DNA of 15,288 nt from a virus. Positions 2,707-15,288 of the stretch are shown one piece after another (position 1 is the first letter of the stretch; each line of letters begins with the position of its first letter). The stretch is from UHGV virus genome UHGV-0106422; one strand, 5' to 3'. Both the position numbers and the translations under genes were made by a program. The notes under the pieces were generated by a model that was not told the DNA's origin, searched no databases, and saw only the letters and a program-made list of their open reading frames with translations.

Positions 2707-5616
2707 TTATGCCTGAGTACGCAGAGCTTCAAGGCGGCGCAGGTCGAAGTCGTTCAGTTCGTCGGTGTAGTCAGCAGTGATTGGCGCTGGCCATTCACCT
2801 GTGTCGAATCCGGTTGCGATATTGCGCATCGCTTTGCGGTACTCGAGCATACCCAGCTCCAGTAGTTCAGCGGATGCCTCGATGATGGCGATCCAGTGGT
2901 AGTTCTCGTCTTTGTTGACGAAAATCCAGAAGAACTGATCCAGCGCTGCGGTTTCGCAGTACATAGCCGCGCTCAGGTGATAATCACGTTCAATAATTTC
3001 CCGGTGTAGCCTGGCGCGCAGGCTTTCCTGCTTAACATTCCACATGCTGATGGTTTTCAGGTCTGCACCTATACGCACGCCATCCAGGTCGATCTCAAGG
3101 TCAGGGCGCACACGAACTTCCAAGCCCGTCTCCTCGTCAAAACCAAAGTAGCTCACCTCAACGGCTCGGCTAGGGTGGGTCAGCAGCATGCCGGCGGTCG
3201 GGTGTGCCAGAAGCGCTTTTTGAATATTCAGCGCGGTGCTCAGCTGCTGGCGGGTGACCAGCACTTTTCCTTCCGGGTTATCGCGCCAGGCATCCAGCAG
3301 TTCGTCGGCAAATACGTCATCTGGTTTGACTGCCTTCACGGCCTGGATCATGTCTGCTTTGGTACCGGACACTTTCAGTGGTGCCGGTTTCTGTGCTTCC
3401 TGAGCCACAAGGTCAGGGTTGATGATTGCCAACTGCTCCAGCAGCGCGTCACGGCTGCCGCTGGTTTTAACCGGCGGCGGCAGGGTGGCGTTGTACTCTT
3501 TAATGCATGCCTTCATTGCCGTCGCCGTCTGCTTCTGGTCACCATCAATACGCTGGAAGTCAGCTGGCAGCGCCATATAGTTCTGTGCCGTTTCTTCCAG
3601 GTTAGCGCCAAGCGGAACCTGCGGCGGCAGGGTGGCGTTGTACTCTTCCAGTAACACCTTGATGTCGTCGGCAGACAGCAGCGCCGGCAGGCTGGCATTG
3701 TGCTCATCGATAAAGGCGCGCAGGGTCGCGGCCGTTGTGAATGCGCCTTCAGGGATCACCGGTTCAACGCTGAATTCTGCGTCCAGTAGTTCAGGCTGCA
3801 ACGCCAGCGCATGCACCAAGTTGCCCATGTCCAGCACCGCTGAGCGCTCTTTGACGATGGTTTTCTCTACGTGGCGCGCATTGAAGTACATCAGCGAAAC
3901 GCGCGCATCTTTCACCTGGGTTGAGCTGATGCCGTTGGCGGCGTGGTAAACCTCGTTTGGCAGCCCTTCATAGCGGCCTGGCTCGAAATAAGCGGGATAA
4001 ACAACAGCTGGTTCGTCAGATTGCGCTTCTGGCTCGGTTTGTGCTGCAACTGGTTCGGTTTGGCTTACAGAATCGCTATTTTTGGCGACAGAATCCGTAT
4101 TCTGGTCTACATCGTCCTTCTGGCTGGTATCTGACTCTTCACCAGACTCCAGACTGCTTTCGCCTGGCTGTACTTCATCACCAGCTTGTTTTTCATCACT
4201 GACAGTTTCTTGAACCTGCACATTGCTGGTGGTCTCCGTAGCCTTTTTCGTGCCATGAGTTGCTGAGTTCTGCAGCAAAGCCGTAACGTCGAATATTCCG
4301 TTGCCGACATTTTTAACCAGTTCTTGTTCGACTTTCTGCGGTTGTGCTGCCGCTTCCTCTGCGCGGCGGCGTGCTCCTTCTTCACGCACGCGTTGCAGGT
4401 TCTCTTCGTGAGTGCAGAAGGATTTGCGCGGAGACTCCTTACCTTCAGGTTGGGGAATTTCCTGTGCTGCGGGTTCAGCTTCATGCAACGGCAATAACTC
4501 GACCGCGGAATTGAACGCGGCTGTCATGGTCTGGTTAACAAATTCCAGGTGAGCGACAGGAGTTAAATGAATATTTTCCGGTGCGATACGTACCAGGTTA
4601 AAAATAGCCGTGCGGTTAACACCCAGAACGCCTGGCTGATTGCGCAGGATGTTGCTCCATGATTTCCATGGTTCTTCTTTTTTGGTCACGATTTCTTTAG
4701 CGCGACGAAGAATGCTGCCCGGGATCTCGAAGTGGTTGAAGTCCATAGGCAGAAGGGCACACGCAATCTCTAAATCGAGAGTGTCCAGTGTGTGGTGTGC
4801 CTCAGGTCCACGGTCAGTGACGTAACCGCCGTCGGCATTAGTGCCGGAATCAGTACGCTGCACACTACTGATGCGATTACCGGCGGCCCATTCACGCGCC
4901 AGGATGCCACGGTCAATGTAATCAGTCGCCGCCCACATTCTGGTGAAACGGAGTACCAGCGCGAGTTCGTGACGCTTGTCCTGGCTGAACACTTTGCGAA
5001 TGGCATCGGTGTAGCGCCACAGGTCTTTGGTGTCGTAACCCTTCACTTCCGGGCAGTTCTCAGCAGCTAACAGCAAGTTCTGGACGTAACTGTTATCAGT
5101 GTCCATCTCCAGCGCGCCGATAGCTTCGTACTCTTCATGGGTTACGTGGTGGCGCAGTTCGTCGGCGGTGAACTGGGAAAGCAGTTGCTTACGAAACGGC
5201 ATCTGCACTACCGGGTAGAGGGTTGAGTCGTCGTCGTGTTCGTCCAGCGTGATGCCAGCGGTTTCTGACAGCGTTGACTCAGTAGTTATGTGACTATCAA
5301 CGGTCTGAGCCGTTTTCTCGTCAGAGTTTTCAGCTGTGACTTTTGGCAGCCAGGTGCGGTCATCGTTCTGCAGTTCGTAGCGTTCGCACCAGGTGTAATC
5401 CACTGCGCCTTCTTCCGGCAGGTCGTCATATACCGGGAAATCGGTGCGGATTGGTTTGGCATAATCTTTACCGCGGCCAGTTTCTTCAATTCCGGCTTCT
5501 TCCAGTGCCACATCGAGTTGGAGATTGGCGCGCGCTACACTTTTCGCAGTGAACCAAATCACTGCATCTTTCTTGCCAGACTTCTGACTGGCTTTTATCA
5601 GATGGAAAAATTCCAT
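2707..5616 (-). CDS. recE: Exodeoxyribonuclease VIII (RecE-like), 969 aa
   Basis: N-terminus (…DAVIWFTA…FPVYDDLPEEGAVDYTWCERYEL…GNRISSVQRTDSGTNADGGYVTDRGP) closely parallels recalled E. coli Rac RecE; the C-terminal ~300 aa carries the nuclease-type domain. Immediately upstream of, and co-oriented with, the annealing protein. Confidence 0.85.
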   Translation of the reverse strand: MEFFHLIKASQKSGKKDAVIWFTAKSVARANLQLDVALEEAGIEETGRGKDYAKPIRTDFPVYDDLPEEGAVDYTWCERYELQNDDRTWLPKVTAENSDEKTAQTVDSHITTESTLSETAGITLDEHDDDSTLYPVVQMPFRKQLLSQFTADELRHHVTHEEYEAIGALEMDTDNSYVQNLLLAAENCPEVKGYDTKDLWRYTDAIRKVFSQDKRHELALVLRFTRMWAATDYIDRGILAREWAAGNRISSVQRTDSGTNADGGYVTDRGPEAHHTLDTLDLEIACALLPMDFNHFEIPGSILRRAKEIVTKKEEPWKSWSNILRNQPGVLGVNRTAIFNLVRIAPENIHLTPVAHLEFVNQTMTAAFNSAVELLPLHEAEPAAQEIPQPEGKESPRKSFCTHEENLQRVREEGARRRAEEAAAQPQKVEQELVKNVGNGIFDVTALLQNSATHGTKKATETTSNVQVQETVSDEKQAGDEVQPGESSLESGEESDTSQKDDVDQNTDSVAKNSDSVSQTEPVAAQTEPEAQSDEPAVVYPAYFEPGRYEGLPNEVYHAANGISSTQVKDARVSLMYFNARHVEKTIVKERSAVLDMGNLVHALALQPELLDAEFSVEPVIPEGAFTTAATLRAFIDEHNASLPALLSADDIKVLLEEYNATLPPQVPLGANLEETAQNYMALPADFQRIDGDQKQTATAMKACIKEYNATLPPPVKTSGSRDALLEQLAIINPDLVAQEAQKPAPLKVSGTKADMIQAVKAVKPDDVFADELLDAWRDNPEGKVLVTRQQLSTALNIQKALLAHPTAGMLLTHPSRAVEVSYFGFDEETGLEVRVRPDLEIDLDGVRIGADLKTISMWNVKQESLRARLHREIIERDYHLSAAMYCETAALDQFFWIFVNKDENYHWIAIIEASAELLELGMLEYRKAMRNIATGFDTGEWPAPITADYTDELNDFDLRRLEALRTQA

Positions 5617-5756
5617 GTGAGATCCTCATTTTTGGGTGTTAGAATCCCCGGACCATTGATAGCGCCCATTGGGTTAACTTTGGTTTTAATGTTGTTTCCG
5701 GTGTAACTTTGGTCGGTGAGGCCGGACATGGCGGGCCCACTTCGGTGGGCTTTCGC

Positions 5757-6044
5757 TTAACTGACGGCTACGATCGCCTCATTCATAAAATCTTGCTTGT
5801 ATGTACGGTAGGTTCCCCAGCCGGCGTAATCGCTATCGCTGATTTTGAGTGCCAGCAAGCTGATCTCCTCAATGGCGCAGTGCGGGCAATCAAACTTGCC
5901 AAGCACATAGCCACCGTCGAGAATGACTGTTGTTTCACCGTTTGTAGTTGAGTGAATAACGCCTGATACTTTCTTCTCGCAGTTGAATGCAGCCACTTCT
6001 TTATTCACTGCTTTCAGGTTCATTTCGATTTTTACGATTTCCAT
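5757..6044 (-). CDS. Hypothetical early protein (95 aa) with a C..C-P-H-C motif
   Basis: Clean ORF upstream of recE in the leftward operon; no match to lambda Gam/Kil/CIII by eye. Confidence 0.5.
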   Translation of the reverse strand: MEIVKIEMNLKAVNKEVAAFNCEKKVSGVIHSTTNGETTVILDGGYVLGKFDCPHCAIEEISLLALKISDSDYAGWGTYRTYKQDFMNEAIVAVS

Positions 6045-6690: not shown

Positions 6691-6932
6691 TATTCACACT
6701 TTGCATGCCTGACCGGCTTTAATTTCCACTCGGTGGCCTTAAGCTCAATTTCCTTCCTGATTTCCTGATACGTTTTCACGGAGCCATCAGCGTTTTTATT
6801 GAACGGATTGAGCGTTTGATAAAACTTTTCCCGTCGTTTGCAGGCTTTACCGCATACGTCACACTTCCCTGATTTCTCAGCAAAAGTTGAGATCTCATCG
6901 AACCGAGTTGTTGTAATTCCACCCCATCCCAT
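6690..6932 (-). CDS. Hypothetical early protein (80 aa) with CDVCGKAC motif
   Basis: ORF with GAGGGTAAGG RBS; cysteine pair suggests a small metal-binding protein. Confidence 0.5.
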   Translation of the reverse strand: MGWGGITTTRFDEISTFAEKSGKCDVCGKACKRREKFYQTLNPFNKNADGSVKTYQEIRKEIELKATEWKLKPVRHAKCE

Positions 6933-6989
6933 CGCCTTACCCTCTGTCGTTACCCGCTGATGCGGGAGAAATGCTTTATCTATCAGCTT

Positions 6990-7202
6990 CTACAACTCAT
7001 CACGAATCTGTGAGAGTGTGCTGATCGCCTGGTAATGACCGCGACGCTGCTCTTCTGTTTTGAACGCACGCATATCGTCTTTTATCGATGCGATTGCCTT
7101 ATTCAGAACTTCCACTTGCGCTTCTTTAATCGCCTGTTTGCGTGGCTTCTGACGCTTCTTAGGAAGGTCTCTTAAACACGCCGGAATGTATGTCTGAGTC
7201 AT
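6990..7202 (-). CDS. Hypothetical basic protein (70 aa), first gene of the leftward early operon
   Basis: AAGAGGA RBS; Lys/Arg-rich N-terminal segment (PKKRQKPRKQAIKEAQ). Position and charge are compatible with an N-like antiterminator or other nucleic-acid binder, but no sequence match recognised. Confidence 0.45.
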   Translation of the reverse strand: MTQTYIPACLRDLPKKRQKPRKQAIKEAQVEVLNKAIASIKDDMRAFKTEEQRRGHYQAISTLSQIRDEL

Positions 7203-7514
7203 AAAAAATCCTCTTGTGATTCAGCCCAGCCCACTCAACTTCGAATGGACTGGAATAAATCTGTTTGCGCTTCGCACCTCTCATCCCGCCAGTGTTGCCC
7301 GTTCCCACGCCTTTATCGCTCTCGCGAGGGGGTAGCCTCACACCGACCGGTTCGCCGCCGGTGATACGCCGCATTTTGTGCGTTGGGGTCTAAACAGGAT
7401 TGCCGAGTGCTGTTCCGACTTTGCATGTTGTTAAAAAGCAGGCGACTTGCTGTCCGCCGCTGGCTAACTTCGCTCAGCTGTCGATGTTTCGTTTCGATGA
7501 GCTGATTATTAACT

Positions 7515-7591
7515 AATGGTTATTTTCAGTCAATAACCATTGGTTAATTATTTTGCCATTGGTTATTAAGGTTATGATTTATTGGTTAATT
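7515..7591. promoter_or_regulatory. Array of ATTGGTTA(A/T)T motifs, including a perfect 10-bp inverted repeat (AATGGTTATT-7 bp-AATAACCATT)
   Basis: Inverted repeat at 7515-7524 / 7532-7541, with further direct copies at about 7542-7550, 7557-7566 and 7581-7590, in an AT-rich gap upstream of the 7652 ORF. Motif differs from the TTAACT half-sites of the cI/cro operators. Confidence 0.4.
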
Positions 7592-7651
7592 TAGTTCTGT
7601 TATGGATTTGTGCAGTACGTGCTATGCTGCAAAAAACATCAGGAGGTAGCT

Positions 7652-7870
7652 ATGGAACGAGATGAACGTGCAGATGAACGAATGGCCTTCATGGCTGGAG
7701 AGGTTGGGTGCGTAGTGTTCGAGCTGGTTTATAACGGAATTGAAATCAATAAGGACAACATTGTGGGATTTCTGGAAGGGAAGCGCAAAGCCGTAGGAAA
7801 CGTGATCCATAAGGGGATGCTACGGGATGCAGCTGAGATAGTCAGGAAGGGTAGTAAAGCTGTGAAGTAG
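7652..7870 (+). CDS. Hypothetical small protein (72 aa)
   Basis: Strong AGGAGG RBS 6 nt before ATG at 7652; the track's longer 7610 start lacks an RBS. Convergent with the cI-linked cassette and sharing its terminator region. Confidence 0.5.
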   Translation: MERDERADERMAFMAGEVGCVVFELVYNGIEINKDNIVGFLEGKRKAVGNVIHKGMLRDAAEIVRKGSKAVK

Positions 7871-7874
7871 GCAC

Positions 7875-7897
7875 AAAAAACCCGGCGCGGTGGCCGG
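7875..7897 (-). terminator. Intrinsic terminator closing the cI-linked cassette (possibly bidirectional)
   Basis: Plus strand AAAAAACCCGGCGCGGTGGCCGGG: GC-rich 6-bp stem CCCGGC/GCCGGG, followed on the minus-strand transcript by UUUUUU; sits 9 bp past the stop of the 7906..8838 gene. Confidence 0.6.
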
Positions 7898-7905
7898 GTG
7901 AGATA

Positions 7906-8838
7906 TTAAAGAACCGATTTAACAAGATGGTTTTTACGGTACAGACCTATGCGATCATTGTGAATCTCAGTAGTCTCCACTAAAAGAGAAACAATCTGTC
8001 CGACCTTGTGTTTTTTTTGTATTAAATCTAGCATTTCAATCGGATAGGAAGCCTTTAAATGTTCACCACCAACATCAAGCTCCAGCTTCCCATATTTGGA
8101 TAGAACGACCAGTTCGCCTGTAACCGTTTCAGTAATGGGAGGGGATGAAATGGTTGATGTAAGTCTACTCACCAAGTACTTAATTTTATTGGAGTCAATA
8201 GTTGCCACCTTGGTGCCATTACTAAATGGACCGGTCCAACTTGCATCAAATGTTAAGTTGTGTTTATCGCATTCCTCTACGATTCTCTTAAGGCTTACAG
8301 TGGAATTGTATCCAATTTCAGCGACGTGATTCATGAAGTTGTTGTCGTCATCGCTTAACAACAAATCGAATATGCCTTTTACAGCCTTGCTGGGTACTGT
8401 TTCTACTAATTCTGCTATTCCTGTAGAGAAGGTGACGCCCAATTTTGTAGACCCAGGGGATAAATCAGCCAGCCTGAGGTTTAAGGAGCTTTTCACGTCG
8501 TAGGGAACTTTTTTTGAGTCCTTGCCTGAGGCAATTTTGTGTGTTGCTCTTTGTATTAGCGCTGCAAGATTTGTTGAAATAGCCCCAAGCAGCTCTAAAG
8601 GAATAGAGCCAAAGTCAACCTCAGAGCCTTTCAGCCGCAGCTCAAAAAAATCGATAAGTGGGTGCCGACTATCTTGCTTTAATTTTTCGGCCTTCAAATC
8701 GCTCAGATGAGAATCCATGGAGCGATAAAGAAGCATGTCAGCAAAGGACCTGGTTTTGTTTTGCTTCATTGCATCGACTTCTTTTTGAATGAAATCAATG
8801 CGTTTATCGCAATTTTTAAACATTGATTTATCATTCAT
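7906..8838 (-). CDS. Hypothetical protein (310 aa), distal gene of the cI-linked AT-rich cassette
   Basis: Start ATG overlaps the stop of the upstream gene (ATGA, translational coupling); visibly AT-richer than flanking phage core genes; no recognisable catalytic motif or TM segment by eye. Confidence 0.7.
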   Translation of the reverse strand: MNDKSMFKNCDKRIDFIQKEVDAMKQNKTRSFADMLLYRSMDSHLSDLKAEKLKQDSRHPLIDFFELRLKGSEVDFGSIPLELLGAISTNLAALIQRATHKIASGKDSKKVPYDVKSSLNLRLADLSPGSTKLGVTFSTGIAELVETVPSKAVKGIFDLLLSDDDNNFMNHVAEIGYNSTVSLKRIVEECDKHNLTFDASWTGPFSNGTKVATIDSNKIKYLVSRLTSTISSPPITETVTGELVVLSKYGKLELDVGGEHLKASYPIEMLDLIQKKHKVGQIVSLLVETTEIHNDRIGLYRKNHLVKSVL

Positions 8839-9314
8839 AAAAAAATCCTCACTAACCCTTTCGGGTTTTCACTGCGATCAAAACCAAACCAACCGCGCCA
8901 GTAGCTACGCCAGTACTCATAATCATAGTTAGGGTCATCTAAATTCTTCATGAGTAGTAGGACATCAATTTTGTAGTTTTGTTTGATGTAGTTTCGGTCA
9001 AGCAAATTATCGACGCGGCCCCGAAGCATGACAGGTATTGAGTTTATATTGCTATAGTCACATACCAACAAAATATCAATATCATCAGGCTCTGGTTTAG
9101 ACGTGGTGTATGAACCATCAACCCATATTTCTGTAAAACAGCCATATTGAGCAGATAATTCTCGAATAGATTCGAGTAGCTGTATAAAATTACAGTATAG
9201 CATGCCTCGCCTGGATGATGAAGGAAAGCAATCGACACAATACGATTTTAATCCAGCTTCATCCATGTCATGGAACCCTGGCTCAAACAGGGGTGGGTAA
9301 TTAATTTTATCCAT
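8835..9314 (-). CDS. Small nucleotidyltransferase-fold-like protein (~159 aa from ATG 9314; track shows a GTG-initiated 175 aa form to 9362)
   Basis: Motif ...EIWVDGSYTTSKPEPDDIDILLVCD... fits the minimal Pol-beta-type NTase signature (G-S, about 9 residues, then D-x-D, followed by hydrophobics). AAGG 6 nt upstream of ATG 9314; none before the GTG. AT-rich. Confidence 0.6.
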   Translation of the reverse strand: MDKINYPPLFEPGFHDMDEAGLKSYCVDCFPSSSRRGMLYCNFIQLLESIRELSAQYGCFTEIWVDGSYTTSKPEPDDIDILLVCDYSNINSIPVMLRGRVDNLLDRNYIKQNYKIDVLLLMKNLDDPNYDYEYWRSYWRGWFGFDRSENPKGLVRIFL

Positions 9315-9491
9315 AAAAAACCTTGCTATACATTTGTTTTTTTTTATTAAAAATCTAACCACCGAAATGGTGACGGCAAGATGTTACATGGGGTTACAAT
9401 CAGCCAATACACCGCATTAAATAATTTTTTCACCAGCTATGCGCCGACCAGAACACCTTGCCCATCACCCAAACGTCTCATCAGGCCACCG

Positions 9492-10268
9492 CTACAGCAA
9501 TACCGAGTACCAGAAGAGACGGCCAATTATCTCGACATCATCAATATCAGCCTCTTCGTCTGGGTAGGAGTCGTTGTTGTAACTGCGGATGATCAGCTTC
9601 CCACCTGGCTTACGATACAGCTGTTTAATGCGCTTGAGTTGACCATTCCCGCCATCTGTCTGACCAATGGCATACAGTTTCCCATCAACTATGCGTTTGT
9701 TGTTCGTATCGACGGCTACAGTCGTACCATCCGGTATCACAGGTTCCATGCTGTCGCCAGTAGCAGGGAAACACAGGATGCCAGACCCATCTGTGTTAGC
9801 TCCAACGCGGCGGAGGGTTGCCTTTGAGAACCTGAGCTTAAAACCATTGTGATCTTCGCTGTGTACGCGTCCATCGCCACACGCAAATTCAATATCCTTA
9901 AGAAACGGCACTTCAACCTCGTCAGCAGGAAGCGGTGTGTTTTTATCCCAGGCGTCAACAGTTCCCCATTCAGATTCTGGAGGGATAGATGACTCCCTAC
10001 GCAGTTCAGGTTCGGGATCATTCCTTCCGTATTCAAGCCACTCAGGCCGTACCCCAAGCCAGCGGCTAAGGGCAAGGATATTGGTTTGGTCTGGTATCGC
10101 TGATGCGTTAAGCCATTTCCAGATCCCGGGCTCAGATACAGTAATTCCTTGGGACTTCATAGCCTCTCTGATCCTACCAGCCTGCCCACGACCACCAACG
10201 CCAGCATCAAGCAATGCAGCGCGAAGTCTTTTCGAGAATTCTTCTTTTAAATCGTCTTTTTTAACCAT
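9492..10268 (-). CDS. cI: Phage repressor CI (HTH N-terminal domain plus S24 LexA-like autopeptidase C-terminal domain)
   Basis: C-terminal GDSMEP motif is characteristic of the LexA/CI S24 self-cleaving family; divergent from the cro-like gene across an operator-rich gap. Confidence 0.9.
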   Translation of the reverse strand: MVKKDDLKEEFSKRLRAALLDAGVGGRGQAGRIREAMKSQGITVSEPGIWKWLNASAIPDQTNILALSRWLGVRPEWLEYGRNDPEPELRRESSIPPESEWGTVDAWDKNTPLPADEVEVPFLKDIEFACGDGRVHSEDHNGFKLRFSKATLRRVGANTDGSGILCFPATGDSMEPVIPDGTTVAVDTNNKRIVDGKLYAIGQTDGGNGQLKRIKQLYRKPGGKLIIRSYNNDSYPDEEADIDDVEIIGRLFWYSVLL

Positions 10269-10352
10269 TCGTTAATTATCAATTAGAGTTGACATAACTG
10301 TCAGTTAAGATATAACCTTAACTCGTAGTTAATATAGTTAACGGAAAACACT
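10269..10352. promoter_or_regulatory. Divergent immunity control region (OR-like operators with PR and PRM)
   Basis: Three palindromic sites with TTAACT/AGTTAA half-sites at about 10272-10286, 10295-10307 (TAACTGTCAGTTA) and 10318-10332 (TTAACTCGTAGTTAA), spaced 23 bp centre to centre. PR candidate: -35 TTGACA (10289-10294), 16-bp spacer, -10 TATAAC (10311-10316). On the minus strand GATAAT sits 6 nt before the cI ATG, suggesting a leaderless PRM transcript as in lambda. Confidence 0.7.
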
Positions 10353-10598
10353 ATGAACCCAATGCAATTTGCAATCGAAGCTGTAGGCGGTCAAACCGCT
10401 GCTGCTCGCCTGTGTGGCCTATCGAACGTTGCTATTCACAAGTGGGTGAAGAACGCGGCGCTGCCTCGTACTGAGTACACAGAGAAAACCAACTATTCGC
10501 AGCTTTTGGCTGACGCATCAAATGGGCAGTTTACGGCTGAATGGCTCCGTCAAGCAGCTAACCCTGACCGAATTAAACAAGATTCACATGCCGCCTGA
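10353..10598 (+). CDS. cro: Cro-like HTH regulator (81 aa)
   Basis: First gene rightward of the operators; HTH-like segment (QTAAARLCGLSNVAIHKWVK) typical of Cro/YdaS-type phage regulators. Confidence 0.7.
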   Translation: MNPMQFAIEAVGGQTAAARLCGLSNVAIHKWVKNAALPRTEYTEKTNYSQLLADASNGQFTAEWLRQAANPDRIKQDSHAA

Positions 10599-15238: not shown

Positions 15239-15288
15239 CCCATTCGACGCATAACTAAACGTCAAGCAACGTTTGATAAAACACTATC

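What the first reader, a model, noticed from the sequence alone, without database searches (positions are those of the whole stretch)
7490..7870. Repeat array of ATTGGTTA(A/T)T motifs with a perfect inverted repeat, upstream of a small convergent ORF
An AATGGTTATT-7 bp-AATAACCATT palindrome plus at least three further direct copies of the same decamer are packed into about 80 bp immediately upstream of a 72 aa ORF with a strong AGGAGG RBS. The motif is unrelated to the TTAACT half-sites of the cI/cro operators, so it is probably bound by a different factor. The ORF is convergent with the candidate exclusion cassette and shares its terminator, so it may be a regulator or third component of that module, or an independent moron. 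The region could alternatively hold the leftward early promoter and operators.
Basis: seen in the sequence. Interest (0 to 1): 0.55.

Follow-up and report, generated by a model that had tools for sequence, protein, structure and literature searches.

The report
Prophage left operator plus AriR-like gene
The repeats are the ordinary left operator and leftward early promoter of a phi80-like prophage, bound by its own CI repressor; the small gene beside them is a conserved, uncharacterised phage relative of the E. coli stress-signalling protein YmgB/AriR and is not part of the neighbouring defence cassette.

Summary
ATTGGTTA(A/T)T is the half-site of the same TAAC-N5-GTTA palindrome that forms the cI-cro operators. 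That palindrome occurs five times in the window: twice in the array and three times between cI and cro (0.29 expected). The "perfect inverted repeat" is the right half of OL1 and the left half of OL2, flanking the -35 of a leftward promoter (TTGACT-N17-AATAAT), where phi80 has its annotated OL/pL. Two weaker operator-like sites follow. Across 88 related loci the array falls into 35 sequence types. Type tracks the local cI-cro operators and the CI DNA-binding domain.

The parts
7428..7440 (-). boxA-like element of nutL (TGCTTTTTAACAA on the minus strand), downstream of pL
   Evidence: Window 7422-7505 is about 95% identical to the phi80 segment that carries the annotated nutL boxA. The match to the boxA consensus was judged by eye.
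7505..7533 (-). pL, the leftward early promoter: -35 TTGACT (7533->7528), 17-nt spacer, -10 AATAAT (7510->7505)
   Evidence: It is the only sigma-70 consensus match in 7300-8000, at 10 of 12. It lies at the same position as the annotated phi80 pL. An equivalent minus-strand promoter passes a strict filter in 23 of 35 operator types.
7508..7524 (.). OL1: ATTAACTAATGGTTATT, a full TAAC-N5-GTTA operator that overlaps the pL -10
   Evidence: One of only five exact TAAC-N5-GTTA sites in the window. Top PWM score in the window.
7532..7548 (.). OL2: AATAACCATTGGTTAAT, a full operator abutting/overlapping the pL -35, 24 bp centre-to-centre from OL1
   Evidence: It differs from the OR site TTTAACCATTCGTTAAT at 10260-10276 at only 2 of 17 positions. 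The 24-bp spacing also separates two of the OR sites, at 10295 and 10319.
7551..7567 (.). OL3-like weak operator: TTTTGCCATTGGTTATT, with the right half intact and the left half degenerate; 19 bp from OL2
   Evidence: Best-scoring non-training site in the whole window, rank 6 of 15272. It has 2 mismatches to the core.
7570..7575 (+). Extra isolated half-site, GGTTAT
   Evidence: Read directly from the sequence. It belongs to direct-repeat family D2.
7574..7590 (.). OL4-like weak operator: ATGATTTATTGGTTAAT, 23 bp from OL3. It is the operator-like site closest to the ORF promoter.
   Evidence: PWM rank 8 of 15272. The sites are conserved in other phages of the same immunity type, L019 and L028, although the sequence downstream of them differs.
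7620..7628 (+). Predicted promoter of the small gene (P_orf): extended -10 TGcTATGCT, followed by the conserved leader (C)AAAAAACATCA
   Evidence: TG-n-TATGCT and the leader are conserved across the 35 operator types. A regex match is found in 69 of 89 loci. The element is also present in phi80. No transcript data were available.
7641..7646 (+). Shine-Dalgarno sequence AGGAGG, 5 nt before the ATG
7652..7870 (+). 72-aa gene encoding a YmgB/AriR-like three-helix protein of family phrog_3975
7880..7899 (-). Intrinsic terminator of the leftward cI/cassette operon. Its hairpin is also met by the small gene's transcript, but no U-tract follows it on the plus strand.
7906..9362 (-). Neighbouring two-gene cargo cassette (PDC-M63B, 310 aa; PDC-M63A/DUF6932, 175 aa). 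It is not part of the feature and is listed for context.
   Evidence: It is found together with the small gene in only 2 loci.
10260..10333 (.). OR: three full operators of the same type (10260-10276, 10293-10309, 10317-10333) between cI (9492-10268, minus strand) and cro (10353-10598, plus strand). Reference set for the array.

Best explanation
The array is OL, the left operator of a phi80/HK225-like lambdoid prophage, together with its leftward early promoter pL.

**Operator and promoter.** The resident CI repressor (9492-10268), and Cro during lytic growth, recognise 17-bp palindromes built on TAAC-N5-GTTA.
- Two strong sites, OL1 and OL2, lie 24 bp apart. They cover the -10 and flank the -35 of pL, which fires on the minus strand toward nutL, kil and recET. 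CI bound there would shut off the left operon in the lysogen.
- Two weaker sites, OL3 and OL4, and one lone half-site extend the array rightward. All keep the ATTGGTTA(A/T)T half.
- The 'perfect inverted repeat' is a by-product of two adjacent palindromic operators.

**The small gene.** Back-to-back with pL, about 137 bp between predicted start points, is a conserved extended -10 promoter. It drives a 72-aa gene that is a fixed part of this phage lineage's OL region. It is not part of the variable cargo slot between its terminator and cI.
- The product is a three-helix remote homologue of E. coli YmgB/AriR.
- It does not co-vary with operator specificity or with repressor type, so it most likely acts on a conserved host target. 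By analogy with YmgB that target would be SpoT/ppGpp or the Rcs relay, not the repeats or CI.

**Shown versus inferred.**
- Shown by computation: operator identity, promoter position, synteny, purifying selection, fold and profile homology.
- Inferred: CI actually binding the sites; P_orf being active; how CI affects it; and the protein's target. On CI control, operator-like words stop just upstream of the P_orf -35. That resembles the lambda OR2-PRM layout more than occlusion, so I lean weakly toward expression that CI does not block.
For: **The array is made of the resident repressor's operators.**
- Exact TAAC-N5-GTTA occurs 5 times in the window: 7510, 7534, 10262, 10295 and 10319. Shuffles give 0.29.
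- A PWM built from those five sites ranks 7551-7567 and 7574-7590 as the best remaining sites in 15 kb.

**The promoter is where pL should be.**
- The minus-strand promoter TTGACT-N17-AATAAT at 7533->7505 is the only consensus match in the region.
- phi80 has three annotated CI operators and pL at the homologous position. The phi80 nutL flank is about 95% identical to the window.

**Comparison across 88 related loci and 35 array types.**
- Array 7-mers shared with the locus's own cI-cro region average 21.3, against 7.0 for other types.
- CI N-terminal identity has a median of 97.7% within a type and 26% between types. The exceptions are types that share half-sites.

**The small gene is real and is fixed at OL.**
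- It matches phrog_3975 at 1e-31 and has dN/dS of 0.02-0.06.
- The TGnTATGCT element and the leader are conserved across types.
- The same layout occurs in HK225, phi80 and HK639, and in relatives only 36-39% identical.
- About 46 different gene arrangements lie between the gene and cI. One locus has none.
- Orthologues at least 85% identical to the window's gene sit beside 10 operator types.

**YmgB/AriR homology.**
- A family profile matches 2oxl at E 1.4e-6; the next hit is at 0.4.
- Five distant members give sub-threshold hits to PF10798 and one to YcgZ_fam.
- The near-invariant R58 (invariant in alignments A1 and A2) aligns with YmgB R74, the residue needed for SpoT binding.

**Promoter geometry.** Operator-like words fall to background from about 36 nt upstream of the P_orf -10 hexamer onward.
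Against: - No binding, transcript or expression data exist for this prophage. P_orf is a consensus-plus-conservation prediction.
- OL3 and OL4 have degenerate left halves and might bind only cooperatively, or not at all. The PWM was partly trained on OL1 and OL2, whose right halves resemble them.
- The window protein itself does not reach any Pfam threshold. The narrower profile gave only E 0.68 to YmgB. The homology therefore rests on the wider profile plus the fold match.
- YmgB-like function (SpoT, Rcs) is extrapolated from a homologue about 20% identical.
- The hairpin after the gene lacks a plus-strand U-tract. Transcripts may therefore run antisense into the cassette, which would give the promoter a role I have not modelled.
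Confidence: 0.85

Rival explanations
1. The repeats are binding sites for a factor other than CI/Cro. The candidate is the 72-aa protein itself, autoregulating its gene or regulating the cassette.
For: The repeats lie directly upstream of the gene. The extra direct half-sites at 7551-7590 are not classic palindromes.
Against: - The motif is the half-site of the cI-cro operators, and full operators are present in the array.
- The array changes with the CI DNA-binding domain, whereas orthologues of the small protein at least 85% identical sit beside 10 unrelated arrays.
- The protein has a YmgB-like three-helix fold and no helix-turn-helix family hit.
Confidence: 0.03
2. The small gene is a third component, or a dedicated regulator, of the adjacent two-gene exclusion/defence cassette (7906-9362).
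For: The two are adjacent, convergent and meet at one hairpin.
Against: - The cassette matches the two-gene PADLOC candidate system PDC-M63 A+B, and the small protein hits no PADLOC model.
- The small gene occurs with about 46 other arrangements. Its pairing with this cassette is seen in only 2 loci, and one locus has no gene between it and cI.
- The eight loci of the window's own immunity type carry eight different cassettes.
Confidence: 0.03
3. This keeps the anatomy of the best explanation but reverses the regulation. P_orf is repressed by CI bound at OL3/OL4, or by an OL-OR loop. The YmgB-like protein is then an early lytic or decision-phase function made only on infection or induction. 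For example, it might raise ppGpp to bias the lysis-lysogeny choice.
For: - The window type has two extra operator-like sites reaching to about 30 bp from the extended -10 element.
- The gene is conserved like a core phage function rather than like a moron.
- From my own knowledge of the lambda literature, not checked here: ppGpp is known to influence lambda development.
Against: - Operator-like words do not overlap the P_orf -35/-10 core in any consistent way across 24 types.
- In about 13 of 35 types an IHF-consensus site, not an operator, sits next to the promoter.
- Related-specificity types such as L036 have only two operators.
Confidence: 0.35
4. The ORF is not functional as a protein. 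The conserved promoter would exist only to make a rightward RNA antisense to the cI/cassette operon, or to organise supercoiling at pL.
For: The hairpin lacks a plus-strand U-tract, so read-through into the cassette antisense is possible.
Against: - dN/dS is 0.02-0.06, with saturated synonymous change.
- A strong Shine-Dalgarno sequence is present.
- The fold prediction is confident.
- Residues are invariant across relatives only 30-50% identical.
Confidence: 0.04

Closest known systems
OL/pL of coliphage phi80 (annotated in JX871397) and of phage lambda
   Same: - Position: left of cI, beyond the lysogenic cargo genes.
- Two strong palindromic operators about 24 bp apart overlap the -10 and -35 of a leftward promoter, followed by weaker distal site(s).
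- A nutL boxA lies downstream, and the flank is about 95% identical to phi80.
- The operators are of the same type as at OR.
   Different: - The operator sequence, and so the immunity specificity, differs: TAAC-N5-GTTA here, against TGTGGATTT-type half-sites in phi80.
- There are four operator-like sites plus a lone half-site here, not three.
- Lambda has no gene transcribed divergently from pL.
Lambda OR/PRM-PR arrangement (back-to-back promoters sharing an operator array)
   Same: Two divergent promoters are separated by an operator array. The strong sites cover the lytic promoter, and the distal sites end just upstream of the -35 of the other promoter.
   Different: - The distance between predicted start points is about 137 bp here. 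For lambda it is about 82 bp (from my own knowledge).
- The last operator-like site is centred near -53, whereas lambda OR2 is at -42 (from my own knowledge).
- The gene driven is not the repressor.
- Activation by CI is untested.
E. coli YmgB/AriR (PDB 2OXL; Pfam PF10798), a small connector protein that activates the Rcs relay and binds SpoT to raise ppGpp (PMC10704370)
   Same: - Significant profile match over helices 1-3.
- Conserved helix-3 arginine: R58 here aligns with R74 in YmgB.
- Both are restricted to Enterobacteriaceae.
   Different: - Only about 20% identical, and below the Pfam threshold for the window protein.
- Lacks the roughly 25-residue N-terminal extension of the 88-aa YmgB.
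- Encoded in a phage immunity region, not in the ycgZ-ymgABC operon.
- No functional data.
Lambda Orf73 and other TraR/DksA-like small phage proteins (PMC9239242)
   Same: This is a functional precedent only: lambdoid phages carry small proteins that re-programme the host's stringent-response circuitry (abstract).
   Different: The fold and family are unrelated, the genome location differs (nin region, from my own knowledge), and the mechanism is direct RNA polymerase binding.

Membership tests
Lambdoid left operator/promoter (OL/pL) | Sites of the same sequence type as the operators between cI and cro | tested here: met
   The five exact TAAC-N5-GTTA sites in the window are confined to the array and the cI-cro spacer, against 0.29 expected. 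Degenerate-pattern and PWM scans agree.
Lambdoid left operator/promoter (OL/pL) | Operators overlap a sigma-70 promoter that fires away from cI into the early-left operon | tested here: met
   TTGACT-N17-AATAAT lies on the minus strand at 7533->7505. OL1 covers the -10 and OL2 abuts the -35. Downstream on that strand are a boxA-like element, kil and recT/recE.
Lambdoid left operator/promoter (OL/pL) | Positional homology with an experimentally defined OL | tested here: met
   The flanks align to phi80, where OL, pL and nutL are annotated at the same place.
Lambdoid left operator/promoter (OL/pL) | Operator sequence co-varies with the repressor's DNA-binding domain across phages | tested here: met
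   Array k-mers shared with the locus's own OR average 21.3, against 7.0 for foreign ORs. CI N-terminal identity is 97.7% within a type and 26% between types.
Lambdoid left operator/promoter (OL/pL) | Physical binding by CI/Cro and repression of pL | not testable with these tools
   Needs footprinting or EMSA and reporter assays.
YmgB/AriR family (Pfam PF10798) | Match to the Pfam model above its gathering score | tested here: not met
   The window protein has no PF10798 hit. Five distant relatives hit it only at E 0.007 or weaker. I therefore call it a remote homologue, not a Pfam member.
YmgB/AriR family (Pfam PF10798) | Three-helix fold superimposable on the 2OXL structure | tested here: met
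   [not shown]
YmgB/AriR family (Pfam PF10798) | Statistically significant sequence-profile relationship | tested here: met
   A 30-member family profile matches 2oxl at E 1.4e-6 (31 bits), with the next hit at 0.4. The narrower profile gave only E 0.68.
YmgB/AriR family (Pfam PF10798) | Conserved surface arginine of helix 3 (YmgB R74) required for SpoT binding | tested here: met
   R58 is invariant in alignments A1 and A2 and aligns with the only arginine in the matching YmgB stretch. The role of R74 comes from PMC10704370. The residue numbering of YmgB is my own count.
YmgB/AriR family (Pfam PF10798) | Dimerisation, Rcs activation and SpoT-dependent ppGpp accumulation | not testable with these tools
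   Requires two-hybrid, mucoidy or cps reporter assays and ppGpp assays.
PDC-M63 candidate defence system (as a third component) | Consistent co-occurrence with the M63A and M63B genes | tested here: not met
   Among the loci that carry the small gene, the cassette is present in only 2. About 46 other arrangements are found.
PDC-M63 candidate defence system (as a third component) | Match to a PADLOC model of the system | tested here: not met
   The small protein has no PADLOC hit, while both neighbours hit M63A and M63B.

The most novel reading that the evidence does not exclude
phi80-like lambdoid phages carry, as a fixed part of their left operator region, a PRM-like promoter adjacent to CI sites. 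It drives a YmgB/AriR-type 'connector' protein. Through it the phage would tap the host SpoT/ppGpp or Rcs circuits, either to bias the lysis-lysogeny decision or to alter the physiology of the lysogen (capsule, stress tolerance). The chromosomal ycgZ-ymgAB connectors next to prophage e14 could be domesticated descendants of this phage gene family.
Probability: 0.25. Interest if true: 0.7.

Novelty: new member of a known kind. Interest (0 to 1): 0.35.

Why it matters
The repeat array needs no new biology. It is one more immunity specificity of the classic lambdoid operator design, and it gives a clean sequence-level definition of this prophage's OL, OR and pL.

The by-product is more useful. 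A strongly constrained small gene sits opposite pL in a whole lineage of temperate Enterobacteriaceae phages, including the laboratory phage phi80 and the phi80 remnants in DH5alpha-type cloning strains. It has been left unannotated or labelled 'hypothetical'.

Recognising it as a YmgB/AriR relative yields a concrete, cheap hypothesis: phage control of SpoT/ppGpp or Rcs from the immunity region. That can be tested in phi80.

The comparison also shows that the slot between this gene's terminator and cI is a hot spot for cargo and defence genes. The window's PDC-M63 pair is one of about 46 arrangements found there.

Tried and rejected
- **Rfam scan of 6900-8100:** it returned only a spurious miRNA match caused by the palindrome. 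There is no known RNA element.
- **Direct family searches with the small protein:** Pfam, NCBIfam and PADLOC gave nothing significant.
- **Weak Pfam hits:** FakA-like_C, DUF6240 and DUF2767 were treated as noise.
- **Fold searches:** Foldseek against viral structures (BFVD) gave no hit with E below 0.3. The afdb50 library was unavailable.
- **Other regulatory boxes near the gene's promoter:** LexA-box and CII-box (TTGC-N6-TTGC) scans found none near 7560-7650.
- **First k-mer control:** the best cluster anywhere in the locus separated own from foreign arrays poorly, because the words are AT-rich and some 'types' share specificity. I replaced it with a comparison restricted to the CI-defined OR and with the CI-domain comparison.
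- **The idea that the protein binds the CI C-terminal (S24) domain:** I considered it and down-weighted it. The gene also accompanies short 131-155-aa repressors whose sequences show no evident S24 domain (by length and eye, not scanned against Pfam).
- **Literature:** searches found no description of this gene or of a phage-borne AriR/YmgB. The phi80 genome paper (PMC3510586) is not held.
- **Candidate N-like ORF at 7159-7374:** it has no family hit and I did not pursue it.

Full report
**1. What is in the sequence**

The window is the early region of a mosaic lambdoid prophage of the phi80/HK225 type.
- Minus strand: recE/recT, kil, a two-gene cassette and an S24-type cI (9492-10268).
- Plus strand: cro (10353-10598), cII and replication genes.

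- ATTGGTTAWT with up to 1 mismatch occurs 11 times in the window, against 1.79 expected. Six of these lie in 7508-7590.
- The inverted repeat AATGGTTATT / 7 bp / AATAACCATT is real. It extends to 20-nt arms.
- The 72-aa ORF runs 7652-7870 behind AGGAGG.

**2. The repeats are the resident repressor's operators**

The cI-cro spacer contains three palindromes of the form TAAC-N5-GTTA: TTAACCATTCGTTAA, ATAACTGTCAGTTAA and TTAACTCGTAGTTAA.

- Exact TAAC-N5-GTTA occurs only five times in 15,288 bp. Two are in the array (7510, 7534) and three are between cI and cro. Shuffles give 0.29.
- A degenerate 15-mer scan gives the same picture.
- A PWM trained on the five full sites ranks 7551-7567 and 7574-7590 as the best remaining sites in the window, at ranks 6 and 8 of 15,272.

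The array therefore reads OL1 (7508-7524), OL2 (7532-7548), a weaker OL3 (7551-7567), a lone half-site (7570-7575) and a weaker OL4 (7574-7590).
- Centre-to-centre spacings are 24, 19 and 23 bp.
- The 24-bp spacing recurs between two OR sites.
- The 'perfect palindrome' is the right half of OL1 and the left half of OL2.

**3. The promoter**

The spacer of that palindrome holds AGTCAA, which is TTGACT on the minus strand. The only sigma-70 consensus match in 7300-8000 is TTGACT-N17-AATAAT on the minus strand, 7533->7505, at 10 of 12. OL1 covers its -10 and OL2 abuts its -35.

In phi80 (JX871397), three CI operators and the -10/-35 of pL are annotated at exactly the homologous place. The segment just downstream, which carries nutL boxA, is about 95% identical to window 7422-7505.

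**4. Comparative test**

I fetched 85 loci that encode a relative of the small protein and added phi80, HK225 and an E. coli prophage. The roughly 95 bp upstream of the gene's promoter fall into 35 sequence types.
- In nearly every locus the array's words recur as a cluster 0.7-3.6 kb to the right, at the repressor/cro spacer.
- With OR defined independently from the CI gene, arrays share on average 21.3 7-mers with their own OR and 7.0 with the OR of other types.
- The first 95 residues of CI are 97.7% identical (median) within an array type and 26% between types. The between-type exceptions are exactly the types whose arrays share half-sites.
- A minus-strand promoter passes a strict filter in 23 of 35 types. 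phi80 itself fails that filter, so it is conservative.

The repeats therefore travel with, and change with, the CI DNA-binding domain.

**5. The small gene is real, and it belongs to the OL region rather than the cassette**

- It matches phrog_3975 end to end at 1e-31.
- It has 98 homologue clusters in Enterobacter, Klebsiella, Citrobacter, Salmonella, Kluyvera and E. coli.
- dN/dS against eight orthologues is 0.02-0.06 where it could be computed.

Upstream, TG-n-TATGCT (an extended -10), the leader AAAAAAACATCA and a Shine-Dalgarno sequence are conserved across all operator types. These elements are also present in phi80.

Between the gene's stop and cI there are about 46 different gene arrangements drawn from 65 protein families.
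- The window's pair occurs with the gene in only two loci.
- The eight loci of the window's own immunity type carry eight different arrangements.
- One locus (L021) has nothing there.

The window's cassette matches the two-gene PADLOC candidate system PDC-M63 (A is DUF6932; B is the 310-aa protein). The small protein hits no PADLOC model.

The same pL-small gene-terminator-cargo-cI order is found in HK639, which uses put RNA rather than N. It is also found in relatives only 36-39% identical.

The phi80 copy (JX871397 33348-33557) is not annotated in any of three GenBank records.

**6. The protein does not read the repeats**

Orthologues at least 85% identical to the window's protein sit beside 10 different operator types. 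Proteins with identical sequence occur with the phi80-type and the CATAGTTGT-type arrays. The gene also accompanies both S24-type CI repressors and short 131-155-aa repressors in which no S24 domain is evident (judged by length and eye, not scanned). A target specific to immunity, whether the operators, the CI N-domain or the CI C-domain, is therefore unlikely. A conserved host target is more plausible.

**7. What the protein is**

AlphaFold2 with a 27-sequence alignment gives a confident three-helix model with pLDDT 90.5.
- A profile of the close family is only suggestive, at E 0.68 and rank 2.
- An exhaustive profile search recovered 93 representatives. A profile of 30 diverse members matches YmgB at E 1.4e-6, with the next hit at 0.4.
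- Five distant members touch Pfam PF10798 and one touches NCBIfam YcgZ_fam, all below threshold.

I therefore call it a remote homologue of the YcgZ/YmgA/YmgB connector proteins, not a Pfam member.

YmgB activates the Rcs relay. [quoted passage not shown] In the profile alignment, the phage family's R58 falls on that arginine; R58 is invariant in alignments A1 and A2. This is a lead to function, not a demonstration of it.

**8. How CI might affect the gene**

Averaged over 24 types, words specific to the locus's own OR are enriched from -110 to about -36 relative to the first base of the P_orf -10 hexamer. From there onward they fall to control level. The core promoter is thus free of operators, and the last operator-like element ends just upstream of the -35 position.

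In the window, OL4 is centred near -53 relative to the predicted start. In about 13 of 35 types an IHF-consensus site sits in fixed register next to the promoter instead.

This geometry resembles the lambda PRM-OR layout more than promoter occlusion. I lean weakly toward the gene being expressed, or at least not blocked, in the lysogen. Repression by CI with expression only on infection or induction remains a serious rival at about 0.35.

The hairpin at 7880-7899 is a canonical terminator only for the minus strand. Plus-strand read-through into the cassette is therefore possible.

**9. Verdict**

That covers a different factor, a cassette component, and the ORF protein binding the repeats.
- Its alternative, the leftward promoter and operators, is correct.
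- The array is an ordinary member of a very well-known kind.
- The modest interest lies in the conserved, overlooked YmgB/AriR-like gene opposite pL.
- No literature on such a phage gene was found in the held library.

Noticed in passing
window 7906-8838 (-) and 8835-9362 (-): The 'candidate exclusion cassette' next to the finding matches the two-gene PADLOC candidate defence system PDC-M63: the B protein at 7.5e-45 and the A protein (DUF6932) at 2.4e-41. It occupies a cargo slot between the small gene's terminator and cI. Related phages hold about 46 other gene arrangements in that slot.
   Followed up: partly
window 9180-9195: A perfect LexA-box-like palindrome, CTGTATAAAATTACAG, lies inside the 5' part of the PDC-M63A gene. 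It is the only zero-mismatch CTGT-N8-ACAG in the window.
   Followed up: no
window 10260-10276: The cI start codon (10268->10266, minus strand) lies inside the leftmost OR operator, TTTAACCATTCGTTAAT. This suggests a very short or absent leader for the maintenance transcript, as at lambda PRM.
   Followed up: no
L001 (phi80, JX871397) locus 3225-3434 = record 33348-33557: phi80 encodes a 69-aa homologue of the small gene with the same extended -10 element. It is unannotated in JX871397, X13065 and M11919. The same segment is present in DH5alpha-type, XL10-Gold and other laboratory strains.
   Followed up: yes
related loci, e.g. L008, L017, L021, L036, L076: 44-50 nt upstream of the small gene's -10 hexamer: An IHF-consensus site (WATCAANNNNTTR, minus orientation) followed by AATTTATTTTTT sits in fixed register in about 13 of 35 operator types. 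The background rate is 0.93 per kb. The window has only a 1-mismatch match, in a different register (7567-7579). The site may serve pL, the small gene's promoter, or both.
   Followed up: partly
window 7845-7900 compared with L001 3400-3465: The last roughly 25 codons of the window's small gene, including the C-terminal EIVRKGSKAVK shared with phi80, and the terminator are phi80-like. The rest of the gene is HK225-like. A mosaic recombination joint therefore lies inside the 3' end of the gene.
   Followed up: partly
L078 3664-4131; L042 6268-6663: Some phages that carry the small gene have short 131-155-aa helix-turn-helix repressors with no evident S24 peptidase domain (judged by length and eye, not scanned) in place of a CI-type repressor. 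The operator/pL/small-gene layout is the same.
   Followed up: no
window 7159-7374 (-): The first ORF downstream of pL/nutL encodes a 71-aa arginine- and glycine-rich protein with no family hit. It overlaps the next gene (6990-7202, phrog_5305) by 44 nt. It might be an N-like antiterminator or might not be a gene.
   Followed up: no
window 15250-15266 and 5756-5772: Two isolated sequences score as weak operator-like sites with the PWM, at ranks 7 and 9. They are probably chance matches.
   Followed up: no
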